In this document: piece after piece, positions 18,018-55,053 of the stretch
How positions within the stretch are numbered: position 1 is the stretch's first letter
Layout: each line of letters begins with the position of its first letter
Virus record (IMG/VR): IMGVR_UViG_3300044856_000216
Coordinates: 96,001-160,000 of that record
DNA: 64,000 nt
Direction: 5' to 3' (one strand)
Source of the DNA: a virus
Notes under the pieces: model-generated
Told to the model about the DNA's origin: nothing
What the model saw: only the letters and a program-made list of their open reading frames with translations
Database searches by the model: none
Made by a program: the position numbers and the translations under genes

Positions 18018-18117
18018 GGTACGTCATATATGTACCCAAATGAAACCATCAATCCAAAACACCATGTACCTAAATCAATCAATAACAATCAAATAAAAGA
18101 AAGAAGGAATTATTATA

Positions 18118-19119
18118 ATTGGGGTATATTCTATAACAAATTTGAAAACTAAAAAATTATATATTGGAGAAAGTCTTGATATTGATAAAAGATGGATTAA
18201 TCATAAAAATGATCTTTTAAATAACCAACACGCTAATTATTATCTTCAACAAGATTTTAATAAGTTTGGGAAGGCATTTTTTAAATTTGAAGTTCTGCAA
18301 GAAGTTGAAAGAGATAGTATCACTATTACTCAATCCAAATTATTGATGTTAGAAAATGCTTATATAGAAAAATATAAAAATGAAGATTATGAATTATATA
18401 ACATAGAAAATACACTAGAAGATGTTCTTTCAAATAAAAGGAAATTATTGGTTTGCGAAGAAATTGCAAATTATGTTGTAGTGTCTCAATTTTTAAAAAA
18501 TAAATATGTATATGATTATACAAATAAAAGATTTAATTATTGTCAAAGAGATACAATTGAAAATTTAATATTATCTAATTCTTCCATCAAAGGGAAAGAA
18601 AAAGCAAAGCAAGTTGCAAACATAATATTAAAAGAGTTAATTGATCAGAATCTATATGAAAACTTTATAATAGAAAACACTTACTCTATTTATCTATATC
18701 ATAAAATTCAAGAACGTAAAATTATAGAAATTAATTCTAAAGGTCGAGAATATATATTAAGTCATTATGACTTTAATTCGTTTTTATTAAGAAAAAGAAC
18801 TTCTGAAGCCAAATTTTATATACAACAATATCCCTCTGAAAAGAAAATTAAACCAGAAGATCAAAATAGAATACAAGATGTTTGGCATAAACTTAAAGAT
18901 AAATGCATTCTACCACCAGAAAATAAATACAATGATTTTCGAGATATGCTTATAAAATTAAATTTAATTATTATTGATAATAATAAGAGAACACGAGCAA
19001 CTGAATTTGCAATGAAAAATAAATATTTTTTAGTTGTTAAATATAATAAAGCTAAAGATATTTATCAATATGTTATATCTCAAGATGGTTTAAGGTATAT
19101 TTTAGCAAATATAAAATAA
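18118..19119 (+). CDS. GIY-YIG homing endonuclease (I-TevI-like), non-canonical AUU/AUA start
   Basis: (I)GVYSITNLKTKKLYIGESLDIDKRWINHKNDL...YELYNIENT aligns with the I-TevI N-terminus. The GIY motif (18121-) lies upstream of the first canonical start (TTG 18142). The only in-frame candidates after the stop at 18094 are ATT/ATT/ATA/ATT at 18109-18120. Start position is +/-9 nt. Confidence 0.8.
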   Translation: MGVYSITNLKTKKLYIGESLDIDKRWINHKNDLLNNQHANYYLQQDFNKFGKAFFKFEVLQEVERDSITITQSKLLMLENAYIEKYKNEDYELYNIENTLEDVLSNKRKLLVCEEIANYVVVSQFLKNKYVYDYTNKRFNYCQRDTIENLILSNSSIKGKEKAKQVANIILKELIDQNLYENFIIENTYSIYLYHKIQERKIIEINSKGREYILSHYDFNSFLLRKRTSEAKFYIQQYPSEKKIKPEDQNRIQDVWHKLKDKCILPPENKYNDFRDMLIKLNLIIIDNNKRTRATEFAMKNKYFLVVKYNKAKDIYQYVISQDGLRYILANIK

Positions 19120-19315
19120 AATTTTTAAATTTACAGAGTAATTTGTGAAACAAATTGCGCTGTAAATAGTCTGTCTTATTAAATAAGTTATATATCTTCT
19201 TTCAGTTCAGTTGACCTACACAAAAGTGTAGTCAAAATTCTCATATTTTAAAATTGGACGTACACAAAAGTGTAGTTTACTGAACGCTCGTAAAGGCGTT
19301 TCTCTTTAAATAGAA

Positions 19316-19333
19316 ACAGAGAATAAATAAATA
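19316..19333 (+). promoter_or_regulatory. ACAGAGAATAA motif copy
   Basis: ACAGAGAATAAATAAATA, 39 nt upstream of TTG 19358. Confidence 0.55.
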
Positions 19334-19357
19334 TCACATATAAAGGAGTATTTTTAA

Positions 19358-20164
19358 TTGCAACAAAAAATAGAATATTTTACACGTTTCCCTAATGGCT
19401 ATATCCAAGGGAATATCAAAACAAAATATGGAGTTAGTAGGAAATTTTATATCACATACATACTTATAGATAAATACAGATCGTATGAAGACTATAGTTG
19501 GATTACTATTCGTAAAGTAATGGAATTCTATGGCTATAAAACAACCAAACATAAACCAAAAGCATTTCACGAAATTCTCGATGTATTAGAATATATGGTT
19601 AATAATAAAATGATTGAAGTAAAACAAGACCTTGATTCTATAGGATATGATACTGGAATTGAGATTAAGATAATTCCTGAAAATTTTGATCCGTGTAAAG
19701 ATTTTTCAAAACTCACATCATCTCAATATGATTTTATAATGATGAATGAATCTTCTATAAATAGAGAGAATATATTAGTAGCCTTTCTATATATTAATTC
19801 TTATATTTATCTACGACAAAGAGATAAAAATGGCAATGAGCTATCATCAAAACCACAAGACAAGCCAGAAGCCTTTTGGCGAAGTATAGATTCTATGTCG
19901 AAAGAACTTTCTATGTCAAAAGACACAATTAATCAATGTATTCAATATCTCACATCTTCTATTGGCGACAAAGAACCACTTCTAATCAAAAAAGAAGTCG
20001 GTAGTGTTCAGCCTGATCCCAAAAAACCACCACAAAATGTACCAAATATATATGTACTTAATAAAGAAGGATATGAGCAAGAAATTGAATGGGCTATTGC
20101 TAAGATGTTAGAAATCTATAATGTAGACTCATTTGGAGAAATCAAAAACGGCAATAAGTCGTAA
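19358..20164 (+). CDS. hypothetical protein (possible winged-helix DNA-binding / replication-organiser type)
   Basis: AAAGGAG-9 nt-TTG; 268 aa. The function guess is weak. Confidence 0.65.
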   Translation: MQQKIEYFTRFPNGYIQGNIKTKYGVSRKFYITYILIDKYRSYEDYSWITIRKVMEFYGYKTTKHKPKAFHEILDVLEYMVNNKMIEVKQDLDSIGYDTGIEIKIIPENFDPCKDFSKLTSSQYDFIMMNESSINRENILVAFLYINSYIYLRQRDKNGNELSSKPQDKPEAFWRSIDSMSKELSMSKDTINQCIQYLTSSIGDKEPLLIKKEVGSVQPDPKKPPQNVPNIYVLNKEGYEQEIEWAIAKMLEIYNVDSFGEIKNGNKS

Positions 20165-20169
20165 CTAAA

Positions 20170-20187
20170 ACAGAGAATAAACATATG
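20170..20187 (+). promoter_or_regulatory. ACAGAGAATAA motif copy, ending in ATG-TAA
   Basis: ACAGAGAATAAACATATGTAA. Confidence 0.55.
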
Positions 20188-20261
20188 TAACAAATTAACG
20201 CAGCACTCAAAGGAGCTGATCGCAATGAATAATAATTTTAAAACAAAAGGAGAACTAATTA

Positions 20262-20462
20262 ATGAACAGAACTGTAACTATCGAGTCAAAGAACCATAAA
20301 TATGCAAATACATATGGGGGAAATATTTGTATATCAGATTTTTGCACTAATTATGAAGGCAGTCGAAATATTGCAGAACGTATTGAATCTAATTGGCGAT
20401 TTGATAAGGAACATGCAAGAAACAGAGCTATATTAGATGATTATAAGGAGAGACAAAAATAA
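20262..20462 (+). CDS. hypothetical protein
   Basis: AAAGGAG SD. ORF track. Confidence 0.55.
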   Translation: MNRTVTIESKNHKYANTYGGNICISDFCTNYEGSRNIAERIESNWRFDKEHARNRAILDDYKERQK

Positions 20463-20770
20463 TGGCAGATATAAATATGAGTGTATCAATTGAGGAGCAG
20501 GAAATTTGTATTAATGCAATGCGTGATGAAAAGTTTGCAACAATATATGCTTCCGATTCTACATATATTACGAAATTGGACAAGTTATGTAAGGAAAGCC
20601 CTGATATGTACTCTCTTATCGAAGATACAGGTAGAGGTAAAAAATATTTATTAAAGGATAAAACGCTTATCAGCTTTAGGGCAAAGAAAACAACAAGAGT
20701 TATGACAGATGAACAAAAGAAAGCTTCTGCTGAAAGACTCCGCAAGGCTCGTGAGAATAAAAGTGTCTGA
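20462..20770 (+). CDS. hypothetical protein
   Basis: TAATG overlap with the previous gene. ORF track. Confidence 0.6.
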   Translation: MADINMSVSIEEQEICINAMRDEKFATIYASDSTYITKLDKLCKESPDMYSLIEDTGRGKKYLLKDKTLISFRAKKTTRVMTDEQKKASAERLRKARENKSV

Positions 20771-20793
20771 GATACCCTTTCTAGCCAGAAATT

Positions 20794-20823
20794 TACTGTT
20801 CTGACAGTACACAGAAAATTCTA
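20794..20823 (+). promoter_or_regulatory. 30-nt conserved intergenic element, copy B
   Basis: TACTGTTCTGACAGTACACAGAAAATTCTA. Confidence 0.5.
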
Positions 20824-20908
20824 CCATTACTCTTGAAGAAATACTCGTCTAAGAATTACATTTTTCAAATTACAATAAACAACAATAAATAGAAAGAAGG
20901 ATTACATT

Positions 20909-21262
20909 ATGCTGAGAAATTATTATCAAGGAACAATGATTACAGTTGAGTTACCAAAGAATCAATATAAAGGTTATGTGGTTGATTGCGTATACAGATA
21001 TGTCAAGGATATGAATAAGTACGCATTGAGCATGTGGCTTCGTAATACTGAAGTTGACGACAGAATGCAGATTTGCTCACAGGAAATTAATACTCAATAC
21101 ATTACAAGCACAAGAGAGAATATAAAGAAAGATGTGTGTGCAATCGTTGAGCAAGCTGCCAATAGTTCATATTTTGACAAGTCGATTGAGACTTATGAGT
21201 ATACACAGAAATGTTTTGAGCGTGGCAATGCTGAATTTGAGAATGAGGAGAACAGACCATGA
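20909..21262 (+). CDS. hypothetical protein
   Basis: GAAGGA SD. ORF track. Confidence 0.65.
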   Translation: MLRNYYQGTMITVELPKNQYKGYVVDCVYRYVKDMNKYALSMWLRNTEVDDRMQICSQEINTQYITSTRENIKKDVCAIVEQAANSSYFDKSIETYEYTQKCFERGNAEFENEENRP

Positions 21263-21489
21263 GCTGTCCATATTGTAGAGGAATAGGTGAACATGATTAC
21301 AGATGTCCTCTTTGGCAGCCAAGTAAAAAGGCAAAAGTTAAATGTGGTTATTGTGATGAGTATATTCTTGAAGGTGACGATTACGTTGAGATTAATGGAT
21401 GGGCTTATCACAAAGACTGCTTAACTGTTAATAGGTTGCTTGATTTAATGGGAGTTATTACAAAGGAGATGTCGTATGAGTTGGATTAA
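21259..21489 (+). CDS. zinc-ribbon small protein
   Basis: CPYC...CGYC. ATGA overlap with the previous gene. Confidence 0.6.
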   Translation: MSCPYCRGIGEHDYRCPLWQPSKKAKVKCGYCDEYILEGDDYVEINGWAYHKDCLTVNRLLDLMGVITKEMSYELD

Positions 21490-21607
21490 GAAAAAGATAA
21501 AATGGATTATTTATAAGCTTGATAGATTTGTACCTAAGATACATGACTTGCCTGACGTTGTGTATATTAAGTGGATGGGCGAAGAGTTCATTATTAAGAA
21601 GTATTAA
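21476..21607 (+). CDS. 43-aa hypothetical protein
   Basis: Own translation: AAAGGAGATGTCGT-ATG, MSWIKKKIKWIIYKLDRFVPKIHDLPDVVYIKWMGEEFIIKKY*. Confidence 0.4.
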   Translation: MSWIKKKIKWIIYKLDRFVPKIHDLPDVVYIKWMGEEFIIKKY

Positions 21608-21625
21608 ACGGAGAATATATAAATG
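21608..21625 (+). promoter_or_regulatory. GAGAATAT motif copy, ending in ATG-TAA
   Basis: ACGGAGAATATATAAATGTAA, 41 nt upstream of ATG 21652. Confidence 0.5.
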
Positions 21626-21651
21626 TAAAGAAATTTAAAAGGAGGAATCAT

Positions 21652-23079
21652 ATGGTCAATTATGAACCAGAGTTAATGTACGCATTGGATTCTAAAGGTG
21701 AATATGCTGATTGGAAGAATGTTTACAATGTAAGTGGCAGTGACGTACTTTATTGTCCTATTTGTTTAGGAAGAGTCAAACTTTGGAATGGACAAGATCC
21801 AAATAAGACCTATCAAAAACAAAGATGTTTTCATCATATTGATGGAATGTGTTCACAAGAAAGTAGAATCCATTTTGCTTATAAAACATGGTTACTTAAG
21901 CAAGGAAGCAAATTTAAAGTAGGTGAAACTATATATGAAGTTACTAATTCAGAAATCGAAAAAACGTTTCATACTAAATTTGGTGGCTATCGCCCTGATA
22001 TTACTGTAGAAACTACAGAAGGAAAAAGCTTTTATATTGAAATAGCAGATACAAATAAGAAAACCAATGATTATATCGAAAAATGGGATGAGCTTGGATG
22101 TGATGTTTTGGAATTAGATGTAAATGAACAGCTAATAAAAGCTACAATCGCAGGAATTCCAGAATTTAACATCATCTACTCTTCTTCTACTGGCGAATGT
22201 TATATTAAACATTATACGAGACAAGATTATGATGATTTAATCACAGAAAGAAAAATTTATTGGAAACGAAAGGGTCTTATCAAATATAAAATCCAATGGG
22301 AACGATTAGATTGGTTTTGGAAAAAACTCCAAGATTTTTATTCTGGAAATTCTAAAATTAATGTTTTAATTGATGCATTTAGGCAAATGGATTCTGAAGA
22401 CCAACGTTTTATATGTAAAAGGATGCGAGGAAAACACTCATCATTAAAATATGAATTAGAGAATAATTATACTGATAAAAAAGATATTGAAAAAGCTCAT
22501 TTACAACATATTAGTACCACTATTAAAAAGCTTAACCAGGAATTTGGCTATAGTAGTTCTAATCCTTTAGATAGTACATATTTATTTAGAAAAGATAAAC
22601 ATGTTATTTTTAAAGACAGTCCAATATGGGAAAACCGTTCTTATTTATATATTTATAATTATATTACTGAAGAAGATGTTTATAACTATTTTCATCCAAT
22701 TATGGAAGAATATTACAAGGAGCACACAATTCCATTATTAGAGAGTATCCAAAAAAAGAAAATATGCTTTGAAGAAAATGAAAACTATATAAATAACTAT
22801 TTTATTCCTAAATTCAAAAAAATACAAAAACAAATTAATAGATGTTCTAACACTTGTTGGTATGTTAAAAGTTCTGTTACTGTTTATGGATATACTCATG
22901 AATTTAAAATAATTATTAAATTTTTAAATTGTTTTGAGGAACATATATATTTGAATTTTAATGAAAAATCTCAGAATAATATTGATATTAAAAATCTTAT
23001 ATCTTCTAAAATGAATAATATGATTGCTAAAGCAAAAGAAGGATTAAATAGTAATATTAGAATTATGGAGGAACGTTAG
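21652..23079 (+). CDS. CoiA-like (PD-(D/E)xK nuclease-fold) N-terminal domain protein, 475 aa
   Basis: LYCPICLGRV...CFHHIDGMCSQESRIHFAYKTWLL...GGYRPDITVETTEGKSFYIEIADTNKKT...LGCDVLELDV follows the CoiA family pattern. The C-terminal 300 aa are unassigned. Confidence 0.65.
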   Translation: MVNYEPELMYALDSKGEYADWKNVYNVSGSDVLYCPICLGRVKLWNGQDPNKTYQKQRCFHHIDGMCSQESRIHFAYKTWLLKQGSKFKVGETIYEVTNSEIEKTFHTKFGGYRPDITVETTEGKSFYIEIADTNKKTNDYIEKWDELGCDVLELDVNEQLIKATIAGIPEFNIIYSSSTGECYIKHYTRQDYDDLITERKIYWKRKGLIKYKIQWERLDWFWKKLQDFYSGNSKINVLIDAFRQMDSEDQRFICKRMRGKHSSLKYELENNYTDKKDIEKAHLQHISTTIKKLNQEFGYSSSNPLDSTYLFRKDKHVIFKDSPIWENRSYLYIYNYITEEDVYNYFHPIMEEYYKEHTIPLLESIQKKKICFEENENYINNYFIPKFKKIQKQINRCSNTCWYVKSSVTVYGYTHEFKIIIKFLNCFEEHIYLNFNEKSQNNIDIKNLISSKMNNMIAKAKEGLNSNIRIMEER

Positions 23080-23080
23080 T

Positions 23081-25948: not shown

Positions 25949-26066
25949 GTCTCAGATAACGAATTTCGTGACCAAATTTATTTTACATAGGAGAGGGTAG
26001 TTTTCTGCTTATTATTTTTTTATGATTACTACCCTACTTCATTGTATTTCAAAGGAGTGATTTACA

Positions 26067-26390
26067 ATACAACAAGAAAAAAAATATTACAATCAACGAT
26101 TTATAATAAATCAAATTCAAAATGATACTGGCTGCTCTGAAAGAGATATTGGAAGAATATTATCGTCTTTGCGAGATTTGGTAAAGGATAAACTTAGTGA
26201 TAGTGAAGATAGTGAATTAAAAATATTCCCTGGACTAAAAGTAACTTCAAGATATATACCAACTGAGCAGTCTAATCTTAATTTCTGTAATAATGGAACA
26301 ATCAATTCTGATTTTCTATTATATCTTGATGGCGAATTCAGCCATAGATTCAAAGAAGAAATAAAACAATTACATAAAGTAAAACAATGA
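26067..26390 (+). CDS. HU/IHF-fold DNA-binding protein, apparent AUA start
   Basis: ...FIINQIQNDTGCSERDIGRILSSLRDLVKDKLSDSEDSELKIFPGLKVTSRY... fits HU helix1-helix2-beta arms. Helix 1 lies upstream of the first canonical start (TTG 26169). In-frame stop at 26058. AAAGGAG-9 nt-ATA at 26067. Confidence 0.6.
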   Translation: MQQEKKYYNQRFIINQIQNDTGCSERDIGRILSSLRDLVKDKLSDSEDSELKIFPGLKVTSRYIPTEQSNLNFCNNGTINSDFLLYLDGEFSHRFKEEIKQLHKVKQ

Positions 26391-26532: not shown

Positions 26533-26606
26533 AGCGGAATGACGAGCAATGGAAGCTCACTTGGCTCATAACCAAGAGTATGCAGGTTCGAGTCCTGTTT
26601 CCGCAA
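26533..26606 (+). tRNA. tRNA with CAT anticodon, initiator-like (A1:A72 mismatch)
   Basis: AGCGGAA-TG-(AC)GAGC-AATGGAA-GCTC-A-CTTGG-CTCATAA-CCAAG-AGTAT-GCAGG-TTCGAGT-CCTGT-TTCCGCA-A. Two extra nt precede the D-stem. Confidence 0.75.
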
Positions 26607-27435
26607 CTCTCCTACTTGTAGGCGGCAGGTTTCGTGTCGTTAAATAAACTTAGCAATAAGGATAAAGCAGGAATGTCTTTAGTTTGCATAAGACACTGCG
26701 ACTGCGCATAGTAGTTTGACGGAAAACACAGATAATCTATACCAAACCTAAAATCAGAGGGCTACTGCTAATGATATGGCTTGGTAGGGGTGATGAAAAA
26801 CGCCCTGTATTAACATGGAAACATGGGTATAATTACTGTCTTATTGGTGCGATTTCCGCAAGAAAAAGTGCTGATATTGATTGTTGTAATGTTTCTTAAT
26901 GCGAAAGCAAGGAACAGAACAATAAAGCAAGTCGATAGCAAGACGAACAGAATGGTGATGATTGGGCTGTACTCAAAAGGTACAGATGGTCAAATGTACA
27001 CCTCATCGTTCATATCATGCAAAAACAAATTACAACATACTTTTGAAATAAAAATATAATGCATATTTATATTAAAAGCAAATTAATATTTAAAGAATAA
27101 GCAAAAGTGTGTATGACCGCAAAGAGACAAACAACTTATTCATCTGCAATATGATGACATATAGCACTCGCAAGGTACTATATGAGAAAATACAAGTAGA
27201 CGCAACCGTAAGAGATTTGCACTCTCTGAACCCCGCAAGGGACGATGTATCGAAAGGAAATCTATAATGCTTTGTGGTAAGAGTTTGCCAATTTTCGCAA
27301 AATTGGTGTTGTTGTTACCTACAGTCTAATCGACTGTGTGATAAATTGTGTCCAACCACAATAGATGGTAACGTGTTAGGTCAATATCTCAGCCTAAAGA
27401 AATAAAGTCTCATACTTCGGTATGGGATTTTTTTA
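26607..27435 (+). ncRNA. candidate large structured non-coding RNA (~830 nt; GOLLD/ROOL-like genomic context)
   Basis: No SD-led ORF. Flanked by two tRNAs. Many short helices with GNRA loops and several perfect 6-8 bp hairpins. Ends at a UUCG-loop terminator. Confidence 0.45.
27408..27435 (+). terminator. intrinsic terminator (UUCG tetraloop)
   Basis: TCTCATAC-TTCG-GTATGGGA followed by TTTTTTT. Confidence 0.8.
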
Positions 27436-27550: not shown

Positions 27551-27721
27551 GTGAAAATTATTTTATTAATTAACAAAACAGAAGCTTTTGCAATGAGGGA
27601 GCTTATTGGGAAAGAGAATGTGAAAAAGACTTATAGTGGTCATGCAAAATACTATCTGGTTGAAGATGACCAGAATTTAAAAGCTTTGAGTGATTATAGA
27701 AAAAGTAAAATCGTTGGATAG
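27551..27721 (+). CDS. 56-aa hypothetical protein
   Basis: Own translation (GTG start): MKIILLINKTEAFAMRELIGKENVKKTYSGHAKYYLVEDDQNLKALSDYRKSKIVG*. The start codon is uncertain. Confidence 0.45.
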   Translation: MKIILLINKTEAFAMRELIGKENVKKTYSGHAKYYLVEDDQNLKALSDYRKSKIVG

Positions 27722-27755
27722 AGACGAAATCTAAAACGAAAGGTGGTCGGAAACC

Positions 27756-29195
27756 ATCGCAAAGAAAAAACATGAAGTAAAAGTAGAAATTATTGGAGGT
27801 AACGCTGAAGGTGTTACTGGTAGTTGTACTCGAATAAAAACTTCTGAACATTGCTATCTTTTTGAGTGTGGAATGATTCAAGGCAATCATACTGTGCTTG
27901 AAAATTATAGAGCCAATATGAAATATATTCAAAAAGTAAGACCACAAGAAGTCGAATTTATTATTGTTGGACATCTTCACGCAGATCATATAGCCATGAT
28001 TCCAACATTATATGCTCGTGGAAAATGTAATGCAAAAATAATTGTACCTAAAGGTTCAACTTCGATTCTAAAAGAAATGTGGCTTGATTCTTCATATATT
28101 AATTGTAGAGATATTGAAGTCATAAATCTTAAAAATGAAAGAAATTATGAGCCGTTTTATACTGAAGATATTGTATATAAAGCACTCGAATTTGTTCAAG
28201 AGATTGATTCTGATAAGATAGTAAATTTATCTGATGAACTTGCTATTAGATATACTGACGCAGGGCATGTTCTTCTATCTAAGCAATGTGAAGTATATAT
28301 AAACGGAGGTTCACATACTAGAAAAATTCTGTTTTCAAGTGATCTCGGTAATATTGCCACACAAGATACAAGAGTTTTTGTTGAAGATTTTAAACCTGTG
28401 TCATCGGCTAATATTGCAATAATGGAATGTACTTATTGCAGCAAGGAAAGACAATGTACTAAAGAAACATATAAAAAAGATATAGAAAAAATCAAATCTG
28501 TTATAGAACAATATTGTGTTGACAATAATGCAAGAGTTCTTATTCCGTCATTTTCACTTGACAGAACTCCATATATCTTATGGATTTTATATTCCTTATT
28601 TGGAAAAGATGCAAATTTCAAAGTACCAATTTTAATTGATAGTCCATTAGCAAATAGATTGTTAGACTGTTACTCTTCTATTCTTGAAGGTGATAAAAAA
28701 GAATTATTCGATGAAATGATGTCATGGAAGAATGTTCAAAGAATTATTCAACCAGAAAACAGTAAGGCAGCTATTGCAGACAAAGGTGCAAAAATCATTC
28801 TTAGTAGTTCAGGAATGTTGACAGCAGGGAGGTCAATTAAGTGGACTCAGAGTATTTTACCAAGAGAATCTGATTGTATCTTATTTATGGGATATTCTGG
28901 TGAAGATACATTAGCATGGAAAATAAAACATGGTAAAGATAACAAAACAATTAATATTAATGGCAAACCTTTTAAGAATAAGGCGCAGATTTACGATTTG
29001 AAGTCATTTTCTAGTCATATGCAGCGACAGGATATGATTAATTATTACAAATCTATAAATTGTGAAAAAATTTATTTAGTTCATGGTGATTCAAATAAAA
29101 TTGAGTTTAAACATGATTTAGAAGATGCAATATCTGATTGTCTTAAAACTACAAAAGTTATTGCTGTTAATAGCGGTACAAAAATCTCATTATAG
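27756..29195 (+). CDS. metallo-beta-lactamase fold / beta-CASP-type nuclease, apparent AUC start
   Basis: HLHADH motif. The N-terminal strand VKVEIIGGNAEGVTGSCTRI... lies upstream of the first ATG (27873). In-frame stop at 27732. AAAGGTGG-9 nt-ATC at 27756. Confidence 0.75.
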   Translation: MAKKKHEVKVEIIGGNAEGVTGSCTRIKTSEHCYLFECGMIQGNHTVLENYRANMKYIQKVRPQEVEFIIVGHLHADHIAMIPTLYARGKCNAKIIVPKGSTSILKEMWLDSSYINCRDIEVINLKNERNYEPFYTEDIVYKALEFVQEIDSDKIVNLSDELAIRYTDAGHVLLSKQCEVYINGGSHTRKILFSSDLGNIATQDTRVFVEDFKPVSSANIAIMECTYCSKERQCTKETYKKDIEKIKSVIEQYCVDNNARVLIPSFSLDRTPYILWILYSLFGKDANFKVPILIDSPLANRLLDCYSSILEGDKKELFDEMMSWKNVQRIIQPENSKAAIADKGAKIILSSSGMLTAGRSIKWTQSILPRESDCILFMGYSGEDTLAWKIKHGKDNKTININGKPFKNKAQIYDLKSFSSHMQRQDMINYYKSINCEKIYLVHGDSNKIEFKHDLEDAISDCLKTTKVIAVNSGTKISL

Positions 29196-29221: not shown

Positions 29222-29860
29222 ATGCCTATGAATAAAGATTATTTACAGTTAGAGTTTGATAATTTAGGAAGTGAAGCAAATTACAAACTTGCAGATCCGA
29301 CTCTTGTTGATTATTATAAGCGATTAAATAATCGTGAAATTCTTATTAATCAGGATATTGATGACGGAATTGTAGAATGGACTCAAGAAATAGTTGAATG
29401 GAATAGAGAAGACAAGGATATAGCGATTGCCGAAAGAAAGCCAATTAAGATTTGGATTAATTCAAATGGTGGTTCTCTTAATGCAATAAACGAGCTTATT
29501 AATATCTGTAATCTTTCTAAGACACCAGTTTATGCTATTGGAATGGGAAAATGTTACTCCGCAGGAGGGCTTTTGCTTATGGGTATTCCAAGGGGTAACA
29601 GATATATTTTGTCATCTACTGAAGCACTTATTCATGATGGCTCTACAGGCAGTTACGGAGACACTGGCAAGGTACTTGATGATTTAGAGAGAACTAAGAA
29701 AATTGAGGAAGATACAAAACAGTTTATTTTAAGTCATACAAAGATTACTGAGAGTGAATATGATAAAAATTATCGTAAAAATTGGTGGTTAGATGCTAAC
29801 GAAATTATTGAAAAAGGCGTGGCTGATCACATTATTACAAATATTGAGGAATTATTTTAA
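29222..29860 (+). CDS. ClpP-family serine protease
   Basis: GKCYSAGGLLLMG (Ser), LIHDG (His), WLDANEIIEKGVADHII (Asp region). Confidence 0.8.
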   Translation: MPMNKDYLQLEFDNLGSEANYKLADPTLVDYYKRLNNREILINQDIDDGIVEWTQEIVEWNREDKDIAIAERKPIKIWINSNGGSLNAINELINICNLSKTPVYAIGMGKCYSAGGLLLMGIPRGNRYILSSTEALIHDGSTGSYGDTGKVLDDLERTKKIEEDTKQFILSHTKITESEYDKNYRKNWWLDANEIIEKGVADHIITNIEELF

Positions 29861-29887
29861 GGAGAGCGCACTGCTCTCCTATTTTAT
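29861..29887 (+). terminator. intrinsic terminator GGAGAGC-n5-GCTCTCC-TATTTTA
   Basis: Read directly from the sequence. The same stem recurs at 56861. Confidence 0.7.
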
Positions 29888-29909
29888 TGGAGAAAAAGGA
29901 GATTGAAAA

Positions 29910-30137
29910 ATGGCAGCTAGTAAATTAAAGTTCACAAGAACAACTACAGACAAATTAACAGTAAAGGCAGGTACACTCTCAGAGGATTGTACTACTATTA
30001 CATACACAGATGAGAATGATATGGAGCAGGAAGTAAAAGTAGCTGATCTGCTTACTTCATTTAAGAATCAGGTAATTGATTTTACTGTTGCATTAAAAAC
30101 AGATGAGGAGCTAGATGTTCCGTCTGATGAAGAGTAA
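29910..30137 (+). CDS. hypothetical protein
   Basis: AAAGGAG SD. ORF track. Confidence 0.6.
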   Translation: MAASKLKFTRTTTDKLTVKAGTLSEDCTTITYTDENDMEQEVKVADLLTSFKNQVIDFTVALKTDEELDVPSDEE

Positions 30138-35506: not shown

Positions 35507-35511
35507 TATAT

Positions 35512-35585
35512 ACGTCTTTAGTTTAATTGGTTAGAATATCAGACTCCAAATCTGAGAGATGTGGGTTCGACTCCTACAGGGCGTG
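35512..35585 (+). tRNA. tRNA-Trp (CCA)
   Basis: ACGTCTT...TCAGA-CTCCAAA-TCTGA...GTGGG-TTCGACT-CCTAC-AGGGCGT-G. Confidence 0.85.
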
Positions 35586-35672
35586 TTTGTGTCAACTAAG
35601 ATATATGCATATTCTTAGACTATACTGGTGTATAGGTGGCACTAAAACTGTGACGACAGTTGACTTGTTTAT

Positions 35673-35687
35673 ATGGTTCAAATCCAT
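35673..35687 (+). ncRNA. orphan T-arm-like motif ATGG-TTCAAAT-CCAT
   Basis: Canonical T-loop, but I could not fold a complete cloverleaf around it. Confidence 0.3.
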
Positions 35688-35757
35688 TCGCCTTATATAT
35701 GAAAGAAATGAATGTGTAAATTTTAAGTATGATATAAGGTCAGGCGTTGGTATAAGC

Positions 35758-35772
35758 GAGGTTCAATTCCTC
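35758..35772 (+). ncRNA. orphan T-arm-like motif GAGG-TTCAATT-CCTC
   Basis: As above. A possible acceptor, TTTAAGT/ACTCAAG, gives only ~60 nt. Confidence 0.3.
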
Positions 35773-35823
35773 TACTCAAGTCTTGAATGTGTGAATTGCA
35801 CTTTCATTGGAAAGGAGAATTGT

Positions 35824-36000
35824 ATGGTAGGTATTAAAATTTTTGATGAGAACAAAATTGATACTTCGTCTACTGAAATAAGAGAAAAAGTGGCTAAAGC
35901 AATTTCAGATTATGTTTTTGATAATTGGTATGATGTTGTTTGTATTGAAAATTCGGATGATACTGAATGTCATGAAGTATTATTTAAAGTAACACTGTAA
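35824..36000 (+). CDS. 58-aa hypothetical protein
   Basis: GAAAGGAGAATTGT-ATG. This is the 3-prime part of track ORF 35527-36000, whose 5-prime part crosses tRNA-Trp. Confidence 0.5.
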   Translation: MVGIKIFDENKIDTSSTEIREKVAKAISDYVFDNWYDVVCIENSDDTECHEVLFKVTL

Positions 36001-48957: not shown

Positions 48958-48966
48958 GGAGGCGAT

Positions 48967-50562: not shown

Positions 50563-50591
50563 TGCCACAAAATTATTAAGGAGGAATAAAA

Positions 50592-51392: not shown

Positions 51393-51402
51393 TTTAAAAA
51401 AT

Positions 51403-51432
51403 AAGAGTGGTTGAAATATACCACTCTTTTTA
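51403..51432 (+). terminator. intrinsic terminator
   Basis: AAGAGTGG...CCACTCTT followed by TTTAT. Confidence 0.7.
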
Positions 51433-51448
51433 TGAAAGGAATTATTAT

Positions 51449-51790
51449 ATGTCATTAGAAAATAACGCAATTTGCGCAATATGTGGAAAACCTTATAGAG
51501 TTTGTCATACATGTCAGAATATTAAAACTTATACTCCTTGGAGAACAGTAACTGATACTCTTCCACACTATACAATTTATCTTGCAATTTATGAATATAA
51601 TAAAACAAAAGATAAAGCAAAAGCAAAAGAAGAATTATTAAAATGTGATTTATCCGAGTTGGATAGTTTTGATAAAGATGTTAAAAAGGTCATTAATGAA
51701 ATTTTAGGAGAAAATAAAAAGACAGTTAATACTACTCCTAATAAAGAACAGACTTCAAAAACTGATAATAAGCTGGTACATAAGAAATGA
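51449..51790 (+). CDS. Cys-containing hypothetical protein
   Basis: ORF track 51407-51790, trimmed to ATG 51449 because the upstream part lies within the terminator. Confidence 0.6.
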   Translation: MSLENNAICAICGKPYRVCHTCQNIKTYTPWRTVTDTLPHYTIYLAIYEYNKTKDKAKAKEELLKCDLSELDSFDKDVKKVINEILGENKKTVNTTPNKEQTSKTDNKLVHKK

Positions 51791-51902
51791 TTATATTGAA
51801 TAGTAAGTTGAATTTTTTAATTGTATAGGGTTACGCATTTACTATTCAGTATTTTGTGTAGCCCTATTTTTTACGCTTATAAATAGAATGGAGTGAACGG
51901 AT

Positions 51903-52136
51903 ATTAAAGAATATAGTGACGTATTTAATTGGGAATACGATTCAGAAGATGTAATTTACATTCCTAATATGACTCAAAACTGTATGTATTTAAGTTCACC
52001 TTTGTCACGAGGGAAATTAGTTGATATTTTTCCAGGCAGAAATAAACGTGTTGTTTTTGCTTGGCTAAGATCAAAAGAAATAAATGAGTTATATAAAGAA
52101 TGGAATAGTAAGAAAATTGAGGAAGAGGAGGATTAA
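51903..52136 (+). CDS. small hypothetical protein (77 aa if the AUU start is used; 55 aa from ATG 51969)
   Basis: Own translation ...NMTQNCMYLSSPLSRGKLVDIFPGRNKRVVFAWLRSKEINELYKEWNSKKIEEEED*. GGAG-9 nt-ATT at 51903. Confidence 0.45.
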   Translation: MKEYSDVFNWEYDSEDVIYIPNMTQNCMYLSSPLSRGKLVDIFPGRNKRVVFAWLRSKEINELYKEWNSKKIEEEED

Positions 52137-52139
52137 CTG

Positions 52140-52514
52140 ATGAAGGAGTTTTTAGGAAGCTTAGATTGGATGACACTGCTCTCTGCTATTTGGACAGTAA
52201 TTTTAGTTCCGATCGGGACACAGATTTATAAATATCTGAAAACAAAGAAACTTGATAAGTATGCCTTGATTCTTTATAGAGAAGTTAAAAATGCTGTCAA
52301 GTCAGTATATGAAACAGAGGTCAAAGACATAAAGGGCACTGACGCATGGACTAAGGATAAAATGAATGAAGTAAAAGAAATTGCAAAACAGAAAGCAATT
52401 CAGGCACTTAATCAGTCAGTATATAAATGTCTCAAAGAGGCTAATAGTGATTTCGAGGATTATTTAGATTCACTCATTACAACCTCATTGTATGATCTTA
52501 AACATGAAAAATAA
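52140..52514 (+). CDS. holin candidate (one N-terminal TM helix)
   Basis: LDWMTLLSAIWTVILVPIGTQIY. Lies directly upstream of the endolysin. Confidence 0.5.
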   Translation: MKEFLGSLDWMTLLSAIWTVILVPIGTQIYKYLKTKKLDKYALILYREVKNAVKSVYETEVKDIKGTDAWTKDKMNEVKEIAKQKAIQALNQSVYKCLKEANSDFEDYLDSLITTSLYDLKHEK

Positions 52515-52531
52515 AATATGATAAATAATTT

Positions 52532-52556
52532 AGAGACTTAAAGAGTCTCTTTTTTA
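52532..52556 (+). terminator. intrinsic terminator
   Basis: AGAGACT...AGTCTCT followed by TTTTT. Confidence 0.65.
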
Positions 52557-52585
52557 TTGTAGAAAATTAGGAAGGAGGAATCACT

Positions 52586-53545
52586 ATGATTTCAAATTGT
52601 GGAAAAGATGAACGAGGTCGTTATTCTGGTGGAAAAGCTGGCGACCAGAGTGGTACTGAATGGTATATTCGTTCTTGGTATAATCATAATTGGAAATGTG
52701 TAATCAGATTTCCTGCGAATGTGCGTGAGCAGTTAGCTCTTAATGCAGAAAAGGCAGCTAAGAACAATTTAATTGGATATGACCAGAATGCGCGTCTCTC
52801 ATATTACAATCATCTTAAAGCTAGTAACTGGGATGCAAGTAAAATTACAATAGCTTGTGAAGCTGATTGTTCAGCAGGTGTTTCAGCAAATATTATAGCG
52901 GCTGGTTATAAACTTGGAATTTCAACATTAAAGAATTTCAATAAATCCAATACTACTTCTACTCTTCGTGCAGCTTGCAAAGCAGTTGGCGCAACGATAC
53001 TTACAGATTCAAAATATTTAACAAGTGATGCATATTTACTTAGAGGAGATTTGATTCTTAAGGATGGAAGTCATGTATGTACTAATATTACAAATGGTTC
53101 GAAGGCTTCTACTTCTACTCCAAAACCATCTACTTCTACTCAGTCAAAGCCAAGTGGAAATTCACTCGTAAGATTAGGACAGCAACACGCTATTAATTTT
53201 ACAGGACATACAATTGCTGTTGATGGACTTGTCGGAAAAGAAACCAACAGAATGAAAGCTAGAGTTTTACAACATGCTATCAACCTTGATTATAAAAAGG
53301 GTATTGGGGAAGATGGAATATTTGGTCGCAAGTCTAAGTCAGCTCTTGGCTCTCATTATGTTAAAAAGGGAGAAAGACAGTATATGGTAACTGCGGCTGA
53401 GATACTTATGTATCTTAATGGTGTTGATCCGAATGGTGTAGAATGTCCTGGCAAATATGGTAATGGTCTTGTAAGAGCTTCAAAACAGAAATTTGGAGAT
53501 GATGGTCTTAAAATTACAGCATCTGAATTCCTCAAGTTGATATAA
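52586..53545 (+). CDS. endolysin (N-terminal catalytic domain, S/T/P linker, C-terminal PG_binding_1-like domain)
   Basis: Linker SKASTSTPKPSTSTQSKPSG. C-terminus VDGLVGKETNRMKARVLQHAIN...EDGIFGRKSKSAL. Confidence 0.75.
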   Translation: MISNCGKDERGRYSGGKAGDQSGTEWYIRSWYNHNWKCVIRFPANVREQLALNAEKAAKNNLIGYDQNARLSYYNHLKASNWDASKITIACEADCSAGVSANIIAAGYKLGISTLKNFNKSNTTSTLRAACKAVGATILTDSKYLTSDAYLLRGDLILKDGSHVCTNITNGSKASTSTPKPSTSTQSKPSGNSLVRLGQQHAINFTGHTIAVDGLVGKETNRMKARVLQHAINLDYKKGIGEDGIFGRKSKSALGSHYVKKGERQYMVTAAEILMYLNGVDPNGVECPGKYGNGLVRASKQKFGDDGLKITASEFLKLI

Positions 53546-53572
53546 GGAAAGGCTCAGATGGTGTAATATGAA

Positions 53573-54058
53573 ATGGATGAAATAAAAGCATTAATGAATT
53601 TAGATTTTCCAACTGTTATCTTGGGCGTATTTATAATAATCTTGGGATTAGATAAAATAGTATTCTTGATTCAAAAAGCAAAGAAAACCCTACGTGTAAA
53701 ACTTGGCTATGAAATTGATAAAGAGACACTTGACAAAAGAATAGACACTTTGGAAAAACATGATAACTGGCAGTATAAAGAGATAACTAAAATGTCTGAA
53801 GGTATAGAGAATATTGAATCCGAGTTATTAGATAATAACTTGGAGAGAAAACGTAAATATATTTTGGATTTTTGTTCTTCTCTGTCAAATGGTCAGAAAC
53901 AAAATAAAGAGGCTTTCAATAATGTCTTCAAGACATATAAAAAGTATGAAGAACTGCTTACAGCTCATAAGATGGAAAATGGTCAAGCAGAGGAAAGTAT
54001 GAAATTTATTTCTGAAAAGTATCAGGAATGTCTACGAAATATGGAGTTTAAGTCCTAA
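53573..54058 (+). CDS. membrane protein with coiled-coil tail (second holin or lysis accessory candidate)
   Basis: FPTVILGVFIIILGLDKIVFLI TM helix. The start codon is uncertain. Confidence 0.5.
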   Translation: MDEIKALMNLDFPTVILGVFIIILGLDKIVFLIQKAKKTLRVKLGYEIDKETLDKRIDTLEKHDNWQYKEITKMSEGIENIESELLDNNLERKRKYILDFCSSLSNGQKQNKEAFNNVFKTYKKYEELLTAHKMENGQAEESMKFISEKYQECLRNMEFKS

Positions 54059-54117
54059 TATTTTTATTATATCATAAAATCCAGTAATTCAACTTATGAA
54101 TTTCTTCCTTATTATAT

Positions 54118-54351
54118 ATGTATAGAAAAACAGATTATACACAGACTAAATACATGAAGAATGAAATAGGCAGATATAGGTATCAACAGAATATGTCAAT
54201 ATCAGAACTTGCGAGACGTACAGGATTGTCAGCAACTGCAATATCTAATCTTGAAAATGGATATACATCTGATATACTACTCTCTCATGCTATATCTTTA
54301 TCTCATGCATTACATGTTGATTTGTACGATTTGTTTTGTATTAAAAGATAA
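54118..54351 (+). CDS. XRE-family HTH protein
   Basis: ...MSISELARRTGLSATAISNLENGYTSDILLSHAISLSHALHVDLYDLF... Confidence 0.75.
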   Translation: MYRKTDYTQTKYMKNEIGRYRYQQNMSISELARRTGLSATAISNLENGYTSDILLSHAISLSHALHVDLYDLFCIKR

Positions 54352-54365
54352 GGAGAATTGTTGAT

Positions 54366-54542
54366 ATGGAGAAGACATTTTACAACGTAATCTGTGAAGA
54401 ATTGGAATTATTAGGAGGCAAAGTAATTCATATTGATAAGAACTTTGGAGATATGAATGAAGTACATAATTTCGTAATAAGTAATATAGGTAAATATCCT
54501 AATGCACATTGGGAACTACGACCTATCACATTTAGAATTTAA
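54366..54542 (+). CDS. 58-aa hypothetical protein
   Basis: Own translation: TAAGGAGAATTGTTGAT-ATG, MEKTFYNVICEELELLGGKVIHIDKNF... Confidence 0.5.
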   Translation: MEKTFYNVICEELELLGGKVIHIDKNFGDMNEVHNFVISNIGKYPNAHWELRPITFRI

Positions 54543-54552
54543 TATTAAAGGA

Positions 54553-54584
54553 AAGAGCAGTTTCTTCGGAGGCTGCTCTTTTGT
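54553..54584 (+). terminator. intrinsic terminator
   Basis: AAGAGCAG...CTGCTCTT followed by TTGTT. Confidence 0.65.
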
Positions 54585-54606
54585 TATGTAAGGGGAGTGA
54601 AAGGAA

Positions 54607-55053
54607 ATAACAAAAGCTAAATCGAAATATCATGTAGATATTTCAGAACAAGGTAAGAAAAATCGAACATATAAAGGCGTGACTTACGACAGCCTAACGG
54701 AGCTTAGATTTTTGCAAGAATTTATTGAGCCTAGAATGAAAAGTGGAGAAATATTATCATATGAACGCCAAGTAGAATATGTTCTTCAAGAAAAATTTAA
54801 ATATAATGGAAAGACAATTCTACCAATTAAATATCGAAGTGATTTTAATGTAACATGGGCTGATGGTACTTTACAGGTTTTCGATGTGAAAGGAAATCCC
54901 GATTCTATGTCGTTACTTAAAAGGAAAATGATGTGGTGTAAATATCCAGAGACTAATCTTACATTTATATGCCGTAATTTAAAATACGGTGGATGGGTAG
55001 AATTTGATACTTTAAAGAAACTTCGTAAAGAAGCTAAGAAAGCAAAGTCATGA
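54607..55053 (+). CDS. DUF1064-type protein, apparent AUA start
   Basis: ITKAKSKYHVDISEQGKKNRTYKGVTYDSLTELRFLQEF...YRSDFNVTWADGTLQVFDVKG fits DUF1064. The KSKY N-terminus lies upstream of GTG 54679. In-frame stop at 54598. GGGGAG-9 nt-ATA at 54607. Confidence 0.6.
   Translation: MTKAKSKYHVDISEQGKKNRTYKGVTYDSLTELRFLQEFIEPRMKSGEILSYERQVEYVLQEKFKYNGKTILPIKYRSDFNVTWADGTLQVFDVKGNPDSMSLLKRKMMWCKYPETNLTFICRNLKYGGWVEFDTLKKLRKEAKKAKS

What the first reader, a model, noticed from the sequence alone, without database searches (positions are those of the whole stretch)
18097..54681. Five genes appear to initiate at AUA/AUU/AUC codons about 9 nt downstream of the SD core
In each case a conserved, structurally required N-terminal segment lies between an in-frame stop and the first canonical start codon. 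(1) GIY-YIG endonuclease: the GIY motif itself (GVYSITN, 18121-) lies upstream of TTG 18142. The stop is at 18094 and the only candidates are ATT ATT ATA ATT at 18109-18120, after GAAGGA. (2) HU-like gene: helix 1 lies upstream of TTG 26169, the stop is at 26058, and GGAG-9 nt-ATA gives 26067. (3) Beta-CASP MBL: the first beta-strand plus the GS motif lie upstream of ATG 27873, the stop is at 27732, and GGTGG-9 nt-ATC gives 27756. (4) DUF1064: the KSKY N-terminus lies upstream of GTG 54679, the stop is at 54598, and GGAG-9 nt-ATA gives 54607. (5) 51903: GGAG-9 nt-ATT; this case is weaker because an internal ATG at 51969 could also serve. The identical 9-nt spacing in cases 2-5 argues against chance. 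AUH starts are normally rejected by IF3, so this could be deliberate low-level or stage-specific translation. It may also connect to the phage initiator-like tRNA(CAU) at 26533.
Basis: partly seen in the sequence, partly recalled or inferred. Interest (0 to 1): 0.7.

Follow-up and report, generated by a model that had tools for sequence, protein, structure and literature searches.

The report
Phage genes starting at AUA/AUU/AUC
Five genes of this large gut phage very probably begin at the weak start codons AUA, AUU or AUC; this is a known but rare way for bacteria to start (and usually throttle) translation, and it is used unusually often here and kept across a whole phage family.

Summary
In each gene, conserved coding sequence lies between an in-frame stop and the first ATG/GTG/TTG. 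An in-frame ATH sits 6-9 nt after a good Shine-Dalgarno (SD) sequence. Pfam domains (GIY-YIG, HU-like, metallo-beta-lactamase, DUF1064) extend upstream of the first canonical start.

About 200 related contigs settle the question. The ATH codon is kept down to about 40-57% protein identity. Sequence upstream of it evolves like non-coding DNA, and sequence downstream evolves like coding DNA. For the beta-CASP nuclease, distant relatives carry ATG or TTG at exactly the same position, which is how a start codon behaves. An objective screen finds exactly these five sites in the window. The same screen finds further ATH-start genes in relatives.

The most likely mechanism is the known one. SD-directed initiation by fMet-tRNA on a near-cognate codon gives reduced, IF3-sensitive output, as for infC, pcnB and ccpN. 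SPbeta, a cultured relative, already has a gene annotated with an ATT start.

The neighbouring tRNA(CAU) is of initiator type, with an unusual anticodon stem. No evidence links it to the ATH starts.

Verdict: real, conserved, new members of a known kind. No experimental data are available.

The parts
18096..18108 (+). SD region (AAAGAAAGAAGGA) of the GIY-YIG gene
   Evidence: Read directly. It is invariant in all relatives. SD duplex is -9.4 kcal/mol.
18109..19119 (+). GIY-YIG homing-endonuclease-like gene. The start is one of ATT 18109, ATT 18112, ATA 18115 or ATT 18118; 18115 and 18118 have the workable SD spacing.
   Evidence: Pfam GIY-YIG matches residues 5-93. The ATH run is conserved in 16 relatives. 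The upstream leader is non-coding: stops and indels differ between relatives.
26051..26060 (+). SD (AAAGGAGTGA) of the HU-like gene. It contains the in-frame TGA.
   Evidence: Relatives carry AAAGGAGG at 7-8 nt from the ATA.
26067..26390 (+). HU-like DNA-binding protein gene, ATA start
   Evidence: Pfam Bac_DNA_binding matches residues 9-62, sub-threshold. A family profile hits only HU/TF1 chains, aligning from profile position 9 to HU residue 2 in most of them, with weak E-values of 0.03-1. ATA is kept in 39 of 43 loci and is ATT in L167; the other three loci were anchored off the start (L133 has ATA one codon upstream). Conservation reaches 39-45% identity.
26533..26607 (+). Phage tRNA(CAU) of initiator type. 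It is a neighbour and is not shown to be part of the mechanism.
   Evidence: ARAGORN and Rfam. Family table: 1:72 mismatch, G2:C71, C3:G70, A73, A11:U24, and an anticodon stem of U:A/G:C/G:C.
27738..27747 (+). SD (GAAAGGTGGT) of the beta-CASP MBL gene
   Evidence: It is conserved as AAAGG(T/C)GGT in relatives. SD duplex is -12.6 kcal/mol.
27756..29195 (+). Beta-CASP metallo-beta-lactamase nuclease gene, ATC start
   Evidence: Pfam and PDB matches. The start position is ATC in 61 loci and ATT in 4. It is ATG in L058, L207 and c-st, and TTG in L052-54 and L208; in L205 a TTG lies two codons downstream. Synonymous/non-synonymous differences are 265/212 in the extension against 11/190 upstream.
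51887..51896 (+). SD (AATGGAGTGA) of orf51903
   Evidence: More distant relatives have AAGGAGG-N8-ATT or AGAGGTGAT-N4-ATT.
51903..52136 (+). Small conserved gene of unknown function, ATT start (77 aa)
   Evidence: ATT is invariant in 19 loci and is also present in relatives at 75% and 57% identity. The extension has 9 synonymous and 4 non-synonymous differences, against 1 and 14 upstream.
54590..54600 (+). SD (AAGGGGAGTGA) of the DUF1064 gene
   Evidence: SD duplex is -12.3 kcal/mol.
54607..55053 (+). DUF1064 gene, ATA start
   Evidence: Pfam DUF1064 matches residues 18-128. ATA is present in every relative read in register (43 of 49 loci at the default anchor plus L122; the other five loci were anchored off the start). 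The two codons between the TGA and the ATA vary freely: AAG GAA, ATG GGA, ATT GGA, AAA GGA, and in L122 a TAA directly before the ATA.

Best explanation
The five AUH codons are the real translation start codons.

Proposed mechanism: the 30S subunit is positioned by an ordinary to extended SD pairing (GGAGTGA or AAAGGTGGT), about 6-9 nt upstream. fMet-tRNAfMet pairs with the first two bases of AUA, AUU or AUC and tolerates the third-position mismatch. IF3 proofreading makes this inefficient, so each protein starts with Met but is made at a fraction of what AUG would give.

What is shown: the position of the start and its conservation.

What is inferred: (a) fMet-tRNA is the decoder; (b) output is reduced; (c) selection keeps the weak codon to limit the dosage of nucleases and DNA-binding proteins, or to make their synthesis sensitive to IF3 or initiator-tRNA status during infection.
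For: - There is no canonical start between the upstream stop and the conserved domain segments.
- The ATH codon and the SD are conserved across about 200 related loci, down to 40-57% protein identity.
- ATC/ATT exchanges with ATG or TTG at the identical position of the MBL gene.
- Codons just upstream of the ATA of DUF1064 vary freely, including a stop directly before the ATA.
- The synonymous/non-synonymous contrast across the ATH codon fits a coding onset there.
- The objective screen recovers exactly these five sites.
- GGAGTGA-N6-ATH occurs 3 times against 0.4 expected.
- SD strength and spacing are like those of the phage's canonical genes.
- The same screen finds ATH starts in other genes of relatives, whose window orthologues use ATG or GTG.
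- Published precedent in Firmicutes: AUA/AUU starts with extended SDs at infC, cvfC1, ccpN and citZ give about 10-30% of AUG output (PMC13009471). In E. coli, AUA/AUC/AUU give 1-2% of AUG and the product has an N-terminal Met (10.1101/063800).
- SPbeta yoqL is deposited with an ATT start.
Against: - There are no proteomic or ribosome-profiling data. The host is uncultured.
- The SDs of the ATH genes are not stronger than those of canonical genes (mean -11.2 against -10.2 and -12.1 kcal/mol; p=0.39). The 'extended SD compensates for a weak codon' pattern is therefore not evident.
- Start codons switch between ATH and canonical forms among lineages. This could mean the codon identity is only weakly selected.
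- HU-type proteins are usually abundant, which sits uneasily with attenuation.
- For GIY-YIG, some relatives have an open upstream frame with distant ATGs.
Confidence: 0.8

Rival explanations
1. AUH is used as a start but carries no regulatory meaning. In this phage-host system start-codon selection is relaxed, or a strong SD suffices, so ATH drifts in and out like GTG and TTG do.
For: - On the + strand ATH is as frequent as TTG and more frequent than GTG: 5 ATH, 5 TTG and 2 GTG among 49 curated genes.
- Start codons switch between ATH, ATG, TTG and GTG among relatives in at least five gene families.
- The MAG bins that hold related contigs are mostly Erysipelotrichaceae. From my own knowledge, these are relatives of Mollicutes, where non-AUG starts and variant initiator tRNAs are known; PMC5389676 documents the variant tRNAs.
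Against: - A given gene keeps its ATH over deep divergence. The MBL gene is ATC/ATT from 100% down to 48% identity, and the HU-like gene is ATA down to about 40%.
- All 32 early genes on the minus strand use ATG, so codon choice is not random.
- SPbeta, which infects B. subtilis with normal initiation machinery, also has ATH starts.
Confidence: 0.25
2. The phage's own variant initiator tRNA (26533-26607) licenses or boosts initiation at AUH. This would make the five genes an infection-stage-specific translational regulon.
For: - The tRNA is of initiator type, with an unusual first anticodon-stem pair (U:A instead of G:C). It is conserved at a syntenic site between two ATH-start genes.
- Natural au/GC/GC initiator tRNAs exist in mycoplasmas and alpha-proteobacteria (PMC5389676).
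Against: - The anticodon is CAU, so it pairs no better with AUH than the host tRNA does.
- The first-pair variant is reported to be defective, not permissive, in E. coli.
- A relative with a full 3-GC tRNA (L031) still has ATC. L001 has ATC but no tRNA-Met within 3 kb.
- SPbeta shows ATH starts; from my own knowledge it carries no tRNA genes.
Confidence: 0.07
3. Translation starts at the first downstream canonical codon, and the upstream conserved segments are untranslated leader.
For: Gene callers choose these starts. For example, the 55-aa entry P0004 stands for 34 member sequences.
Against: - The downstream codons have no SD: duplex +0.8 to -4.4 kcal/mol.
- The truncation would remove the GIY beta-strand, HU helix 1, the first MBL strands and the DUF1064 N-terminus.
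- The extension shows coding-type substitution patterns.
- The downstream canonical codon is itself not conserved. The distance to the first canonical start varies between 72, 90 and 129 nt in DUF1064 and between 36 and 111 nt in the HU-like gene.
Confidence: 0.04
4. Recoding or re-initiation from upstream in-frame ATGs. Examples are the ATG-GAG-TGA mini-ORF at 51888-51896, ATG-TAA at 54586-54591 and ATG at 26022. The route would be TGA read-through (code 4) or termination followed by re-initiation.
For: - In-frame ATGs do lie upstream in three cases.
- One database variant has TGG in place of the TGA and is called from that ATG (P0001).
Against: - The upstream ATGs have no SD.
- TGA clearly works as a stop in this genome, because long ORFs are intact under table 11. 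The phage's tRNA-Trp has anticodon CCA.
- In DUF1064 a TAA precedes the TGA, and in L122 a TAA abuts the ATA.
- More distant relatives lack the mini-ORF but keep the SD plus ATT.
Confidence: 0.03

Closest known systems
AUU/AUA start codons of bacterial genes under translational attenuation: E. coli infC and pcnB (AUU); S. aureus infC (AUA), cvfC1 (AUU), ccpN (AUA, shared with B. subtilis), citZ (AUA)
   Same: An AUH codon at normal spacing behind a good SD. The non-canonical codon is conserved among orthologues. The host type is Firmicutes. The expected outcome is reduced, IF3-sensitive initiation with an N-terminal Met (PMC13009471; 10.1101/063800).
   Different: These are phage genes rather than cellular regulators. 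The density is far higher: 5 of about 81 curated genes and about 10% of + strand genes, against a handful per bacterial genome. The SDs are not markedly more extended than those of neighbouring AUG genes. No autoregulatory logic such as that of infC is apparent.
Annotated or predicted AUH starts in Firmicutes phages: SPbeta yoqL (HNH endonuclease, ATT in RefSeq NC_001884) and S. thermophilus phage TP-J34 orf28 (AUU)
   Same: SPbeta belongs to the same broad phage type as the window (YonD-like morphogenesis gene; HU followed by MBL in c-st). yoqL is also an endonuclease gene, with an SD followed by ATT. TP-J34's AUU start was confirmed by resequencing (PMC3952083).
   Different: Those are single, unvalidated annotations. 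Here five genes per 64 kb are backed by deep comparative evidence and by start-codon exchange at one site.
Variant initiator tRNAs lacking the full three G:C pairs (mycoplasmas, alpha-proteobacteria)
   Same: The phage tRNA(CAU) has the initiator hallmarks but only two of the three G:C pairs. The essential middle G30:C40 pair is kept (PMC5389676).
   Different: The natural cellular variants keep purine:pyrimidine (A:U) at 29:41. Most phage copies have U:A. This tRNA is phage-encoded. Any relation to start-codon choice is untested.

Membership tests
SD-led non-canonical (AUH) bacterial start codons | AUH is the first possible start of the conserved coding region, with no in-frame ATG/GTG/TTG between the upstream stop and conserved protein sequence | tested here: met
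   Translations and Pfam/PDB coverage. The objective screen recovers the sites.
SD-led non-canonical (AUH) bacterial start codons | A Shine-Dalgarno sequence at functional spacing upstream of the AUH | tested here: met
   SD duplex of -9.4 to -12.6 kcal/mol. Spacing of 6-9 nt lies within the 4-12 nt range of canonical genes.
SD-led non-canonical (AUH) bacterial start codons | The non-canonical codon is conserved among orthologues, with a coding-type substitution pattern beginning at it | tested here: met
   ATG or TTG occupies the same site in distant MBL orthologues.
SD-led non-canonical (AUH) bacterial start codons | Direct evidence of initiation: an N-terminal peptide or an initiation-arrested ribosome footprint | not testable with these tools
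   The phage and host are uncultured.
SD-led non-canonical (AUH) bacterial start codons | Reduced efficiency relative to AUG, and sensitivity to IF3 | not testable with these tools
   Known for other genes. Inferred here.
Bacterial initiator tRNA (tRNAfMet), for the tRNA at 26533-26607 | CAU anticodon, non-Watson-Crick 1:72, G2:C71, C3:G70, A73 | tested here: met
   The window copy has A1·A72 in the ARAGORN fold. The Rfam register shifts by one base and is less regular. Of 12 family variants, 11 show 1:72 mismatches (A:A, C:U, U:U, C:A, U:C) and one (the L070 type) is elongator-like with an A1:U72 pair; G2:C71, C3:G70 and A73 are kept in 9 of those 11, with A2:U71 in L029 and U3·G70 in L031. 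A thirteenth copy (L205) was not parsed reliably.
Bacterial initiator tRNA (tRNAfMet), for the tRNA at 26533-26607 | A11:U24 in the D stem | tested here: met
   The D arm is GAGC...GCTC in the window and in most relatives. That this pair marks initiators is from my own knowledge.
Bacterial initiator tRNA (tRNAfMet), for the tRNA at 26533-26607 | Three consecutive G:C pairs at 29:41, 30:40 and 31:39 | tested here: not met
   The window copy has U:A/G:C/G:C. The same holds in most relatives. L051 has A:U, and L031 and L205 have the full G:C set.
HU / Bac_DNA_binding (PF00216), for the gene at 26067 | Score above the Pfam gathering threshold | tested here: not met
   21.2 bits against a 22.4 cut-off. 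A family profile hits only HU/TF1 chains, but at E 0.03-1. There is no BLASTP similarity to c-st HU. The single-sequence AF2 model is unreliable, with pLDDT 44. Treat it as HU-like, not as a proven member.
GIY-YIG (PF01541), Beta-Casp/RMMBL (PF10996, PF07521), DUF1064 (PF06356) | Score above the Pfam gathering threshold | tested here: met
   30.7/22.6, 73.4/27.7, 33.6/21.6 and 88.3/24.7 bits (score/cut-off).

The most novel reading that the evidence does not exclude
The AUH-start genes form a phage-programmed translational class. Their output is low early in infection. It rises when initiation fidelity drops, either because host IF3 becomes limiting or because the phage's own variant initiator tRNA (1:72 mismatch, U:A/G:C/G:C anticodon stem) accumulates. 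Start-codon identity would then act as a timing device in a whole family of SPbeta-like gut phages.
Probability: 0.1. Interest if true: 0.8.

Novelty: new member of a known kind. Interest (0 to 1): 0.4.

Why it matters
- Annotation: standard gene callers do not allow ATH starts. Public databases therefore hold truncated versions of these proteins, for example the 55-aa form of the 77-aa protein. The nuclease would lose its first beta-strands and the HU-like protein its helix 1. The same error probably affects SPbeta yoqJ.
- Biology: a phage family in which about 10% of middle and late genes use AUH, conserved for long evolutionary times, is a good natural system. It could show what weak start codons are for (dosage limitation of nucleases, or IF3-dependent timing) and how often start codons turn over.
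- The co-located variant initiator tRNA is a separate, testable curiosity.

Tried and rejected
- Alternative genetic code or TGA read-through: rejected. Long ORFs are intact under table 11, the phage tRNA-Trp has anticodon CCA, and TAA stops lie upstream.
- Sequencing or strain-specific error: rejected, because the codons are conserved in dozens of independent assemblies.
- Upstream ATG for GIY-YIG: the leader carries different stops and indels in different relatives. The ATG sits in a conserved GGTAC/GTACC hairpin-like element without an SD.
- More ATH starts in the window: ATA 30155 and ATT 27557/27560 were considered. Relatives show that GTG 30146 and GTG 27551 are the conserved starts there. 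The minus-strand early genes all use ATG.
- The 127-codon 'ORF' at 15154-15534 with no canonical start is an artefact of a G-poor tract.
- Stronger SD at ATH genes: not found.
- Correlation between initiator-tRNA type and start codon: none is evident.
- Promoter and terminator scans: no better than shuffles for promoters, so uninformative.
- Host identification: there is no isolate match. Portal and terminase searches reach only distant Firmicutes siphoviruses. All exact-match contigs are metagenomic. The MAG bins are Erysipelotrichaceae (3) and Lachnoclostridium (1), which is weak evidence.
- Rfam found only tRNAs and no introns.

Full report
**What the window is.** The window has 32% G+C. 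It carries a block of small genes on the minus strand (1-14,000). From about 15.5 kb onward the genes are on the plus strand, with six tRNA genes among them. Recognisable genes include a portal, a YonD-like morphogenesis protein, a tape-measure protein, a ClpP-like protease, a tyrosine recombinase and a terminase-like protein. The closest cultured relatives are distant large Firmicutes siphoviruses of the SPbeta and c-st type. In Clostridium phage c-st the HU gene and the MBL gene are adjacent, as they are here. Close relatives are abundant in IMG/VR and are contigs of 145-200 kb. All exact matches are metagenomic. Three of the four MAG bins that hold related contigs are Erysipelotrichaceae. 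That is only a weak host hint.

**Checking the observation.** All five descriptions are accurate to the base. Pfam shows that the domain models extend upstream of the first canonical start.
- GIY-YIG matches residues 5-93 counted from 18109, where the TTG is residue 12.
- Bac_DNA_binding matches residues 9-62, where the TTG is residue 35. The score is just below threshold.
- Lactamase_B matches residues 20-115, where the ATG is residue 40.
- DUF1064 matches residues 18-128, where the GTG is residue 25.

Solved beta-CASP RNases align their residues 3-7 to residues 11-15 of the ATC-started protein. A profile of the HU-like family hits only HU and TF1 chains, in most of them aligning HU residue 2 to profile position 9, although the E-values are weak. 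The downstream canonical codons have essentially no SD.

**Is it more than chance?** I tested this in three ways.
- GGAGTGA-N6-ATH occurs three times against 0.4 expected. None of 100 shuffles reaches three.
Its criteria were: a long ORF; an ATH within 12 codons of the upstream stop; an SD duplex of -9 kcal/mol or better; no earlier canonical start; and a next canonical start that is far away and lacks an SD. The same screen gives 0 in 50 kb of c-st, 1 in 50 kb of Lactococcus phage AM1 and 2 in 50 kb of SPbeta.
- Comparative data, described next, are the decisive test.

**Comparative evidence.**
- *MBL gene.* Of 75 related loci, 61 have ATC and 4 have ATT at the aligned position. The SD AAAGG(T/C)GGT is conserved, while the sequence between and upstream diverges freely. 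At exactly this position L058 has ATG, L052-54 have TTG and c-st CST173 has ATG (M-G-K-K-K against I-A-K-K-K). MAG contigs have ATC, ATG and TTG there, and one (L205) has a TTG two codons downstream. Exchange of ATH with ATG and TTG at one site, at the 5' edge of the conserved protein, is the signature of a start codon.
- *HU-like gene.* ATA is kept in 39 of 43 loci, down to about 40% identity. One relative has ATT. Three further loci were anchored off the start; one of these (L133) shows ATA one codon upstream and the other two were not read in register. Relatives have a strong AAAGGAGG 7-8 nt upstream.
- *DUF1064 gene.* ATA is present in every relative read in register. The two codons between the TGA and the ATA vary as AAG GAA, ATG GGA, ATT GGA and AAA GGA. 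In L122 a TAA lies directly before the ATA.
- *orf51903.* ATT is invariant in 19 loci. Relatives at 75% and 57% identity lack the upstream stop but keep AAGGAGG-N8-ATT or AGAGGTGAT-N4-ATT. Gene callers there ran back to an ATG inside a T-rich, terminator-like element.
- *GIY-YIG gene.* The ATY ATT ATA ATY run and its SD are invariant. The upstream leader carries different stops and indels in different relatives, so it is non-coding.

Counting differences from the window gives a clear contrast across the ATH codon.

| Gene | Extension (syn/nonsyn) | Upstream 30 nt, read in frame (syn/nonsyn) |
|---|---|---|
| MBL | 265/212 | 11/190 |
| HU-like | 36/53 | 8/45 |
| orf51903 | 9/4 | 1/14 |
| GIY-YIG | 4/0 | 2/12 |
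| DUF1064 | 5/14 | 3/64 |

**How general it is.** My curated starts are as follows.
- Plus strand: 37 ATG, 5 TTG, 2 GTG and 5 ATH.
- Minus-strand early genes: 32 ATG and nothing else.

In relatives, ATH starts appear in other genes whose window orthologues use canonical codons.
- The ClpP-like gene uses ATT/ATA in the L017/L018 group.
- The gene downstream of ClpP is ATC, ATA or ATT in L051, L061, L062, L068, L070 and L073, where the window has GTG 30146.
- The small ORF at 27551 is TGA-ATT in L048, L044, L066 and L010, where the window has GTG.

SPbeta yoqL, an HNH endonuclease, is deposited with an ATT start behind AGGTGA. The annotated start of SPbeta yoqJ cuts into its YpsA domain, and an ATA with a strong SD lies upstream. 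ATH initiation is therefore a recurrent trait of this broad phage type, including a phage of B. subtilis.

**Mechanism.** The best-supported explanation is the established one: SD-directed initiation on a near-cognate codon by fMet-tRNAfMet, opposed by IF3.
- In E. coli, AUA, AUC and AUU give 1-2% of AUG, and the product has an N-terminal Met (10.1101/063800).
- In S. aureus, AUA and AUU starts at infC, cvfC1, ccpN and citZ give about 10-30% of AUG and are accompanied by extended SDs. The ccpN AUA is shared with B. subtilis (PMC13009471).

Here the SDs are good, but they are not stronger than those of AUG genes. Four of the five products are nucleases or DNA-binding proteins, which fits dosage limitation. 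That purpose is an inference. Long retention of ATH within a gene argues for selection. Frequent switching between lineages argues that the constraint is not absolute.

**The tRNA.** The tRNA(CAU) at 26533-26607 is of initiator type. I compared 12 variants from relatives. Eleven have a non-Watson-Crick 1:72 pair of changing identity and A73; G2:C71 and C3:G70 are kept in nine of those eleven. Most also have an A11:U24 D stem. The twelfth, the L070 type, is elongator-like, and a thirteenth copy (L205) was not parsed reliably. The anticodon stem has only two of the three canonical G:C pairs, with U:A at 29:41. Cellular variants with A:U at that position are known in mycoplasmas and alpha-proteobacteria and are partly defective in E. 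coli (PMC5389676). I found no evidence that links the tRNA to ATH starts.
- The anticodon is CAU.
- A relative with a full 3-GC copy still uses ATC.
- One relative with ATC has no tRNA-Met nearby.
- SPbeta shows ATH starts.

A defence-evasion role for phage tRNAs is an alternative explanation (PMC10264068).

**Verdict.** This is a densely populated, deeply conserved set of new examples of a known mechanism, not a new mechanism. Its practical consequence is systematic N-terminal truncation of these genes in automatic annotation.

Noticed in passing
window 26533-26607; relatives L016-L205: The phage-encoded tRNA(CAU) is an initiator-type tRNA. It has a 1:72 mismatch of varying identity, G2:C71/C3:G70 in most copies, A73 and A11:U24. 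Its anticodon stem is U:A/G:C/G:C instead of three G:C pairs. It is conserved at a syntenic site across the family. A few relatives instead, or additionally, carry an elongator tRNA-Ile(UAU).
   Followed up: partly
window 29222-29230: The ClpP-like gene probably starts at the second ATG (29228), not at 29222. The first codon varies among relatives (ATG, GTG, TAG, AAG, GAG), while the second ATG is invariant. One subgroup of relatives (L017/L018) has ATT/ATA instead.
   Followed up: partly
window 27551-27721: This small ORF after tRNA-Lys starts with GTG here. In several relatives the GTG is replaced by TGA followed directly by ATT AAA ATA. That is another ATH start in the family.
   Followed up: partly
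window 18019-18075: A conserved leader lies upstream of the GIY-YIG gene. It has a GGTAC-N9-GTACC inverted repeat and a second GTACC. It travels with the endonuclease gene into different genomic contexts in relatives, so the gene looks like a free-standing mobile cassette with its own 5' element.
   Followed up: no
window 51888-51896 and 54586-54591; L095 group: In-frame mini-ORFs overlap or precede the SDs: ATG-GAG-TGA and ATG-TAA. The TAGAATGGAGTGAA cassette is reused in front of two different ATH-start genes. One database variant (P0001) has TGG for the TGA, so the ORF runs from that ATG.
   Followed up: partly
L223 (SPbeta NC_001884) 28434-29105 and 29368-30060: SPbeta yoqL is deposited with an ATT start. 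The annotated ATG of yoqJ cuts 15 residues into its YpsA/SLOG domain; an ATA with a strong SD (28434) or an SD-less ATG (28479) lies upstream.
   Followed up: partly
L210 (Lactococcus phage AM1 NC_049854) 15360-14878, minus strand: A 160-codon ORF lies in an unannotated 1.6-kb gap. It has an SD followed by ATC and no canonical start for 144 codons. There is no Pfam hit. It may be a missed ATH-start gene.
   Followed up: partly
window 15200-15540: A G-poor, C/A-rich tract of about 340 nt lies just upstream of the first plus-strand gene. It creates a spurious 127-codon frame with no stop and no ATG/GTG/TTG. Its function is unknown; it may be a regulatory or origin-like region between the divergent gene blocks.
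   Followed up: no
window 1-14003, minus strand: All 32 curated early-type small genes use ATG. Their SDs are stronger on average (-12.1 kcal/mol) than those of plus-strand genes (-10.2). All TTG, GTG and ATH starts are on the plus strand.
   Followed up: partly
protein database entries P0004 and P0008; window 51969: Public protein collections hold N-terminally truncated versions of the ATH-start genes, for example a 55-aa form standing for 34 member sequences. The cause is that gene callers do not consider ATH starts.
   Followed up: partly
window 35527-36000: The longest ORF here begins inside tRNA-Trp (35511-35586). The real start must lie downstream (GTG 35650 or ATG 35824) and is unresolved.
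   Followed up: no
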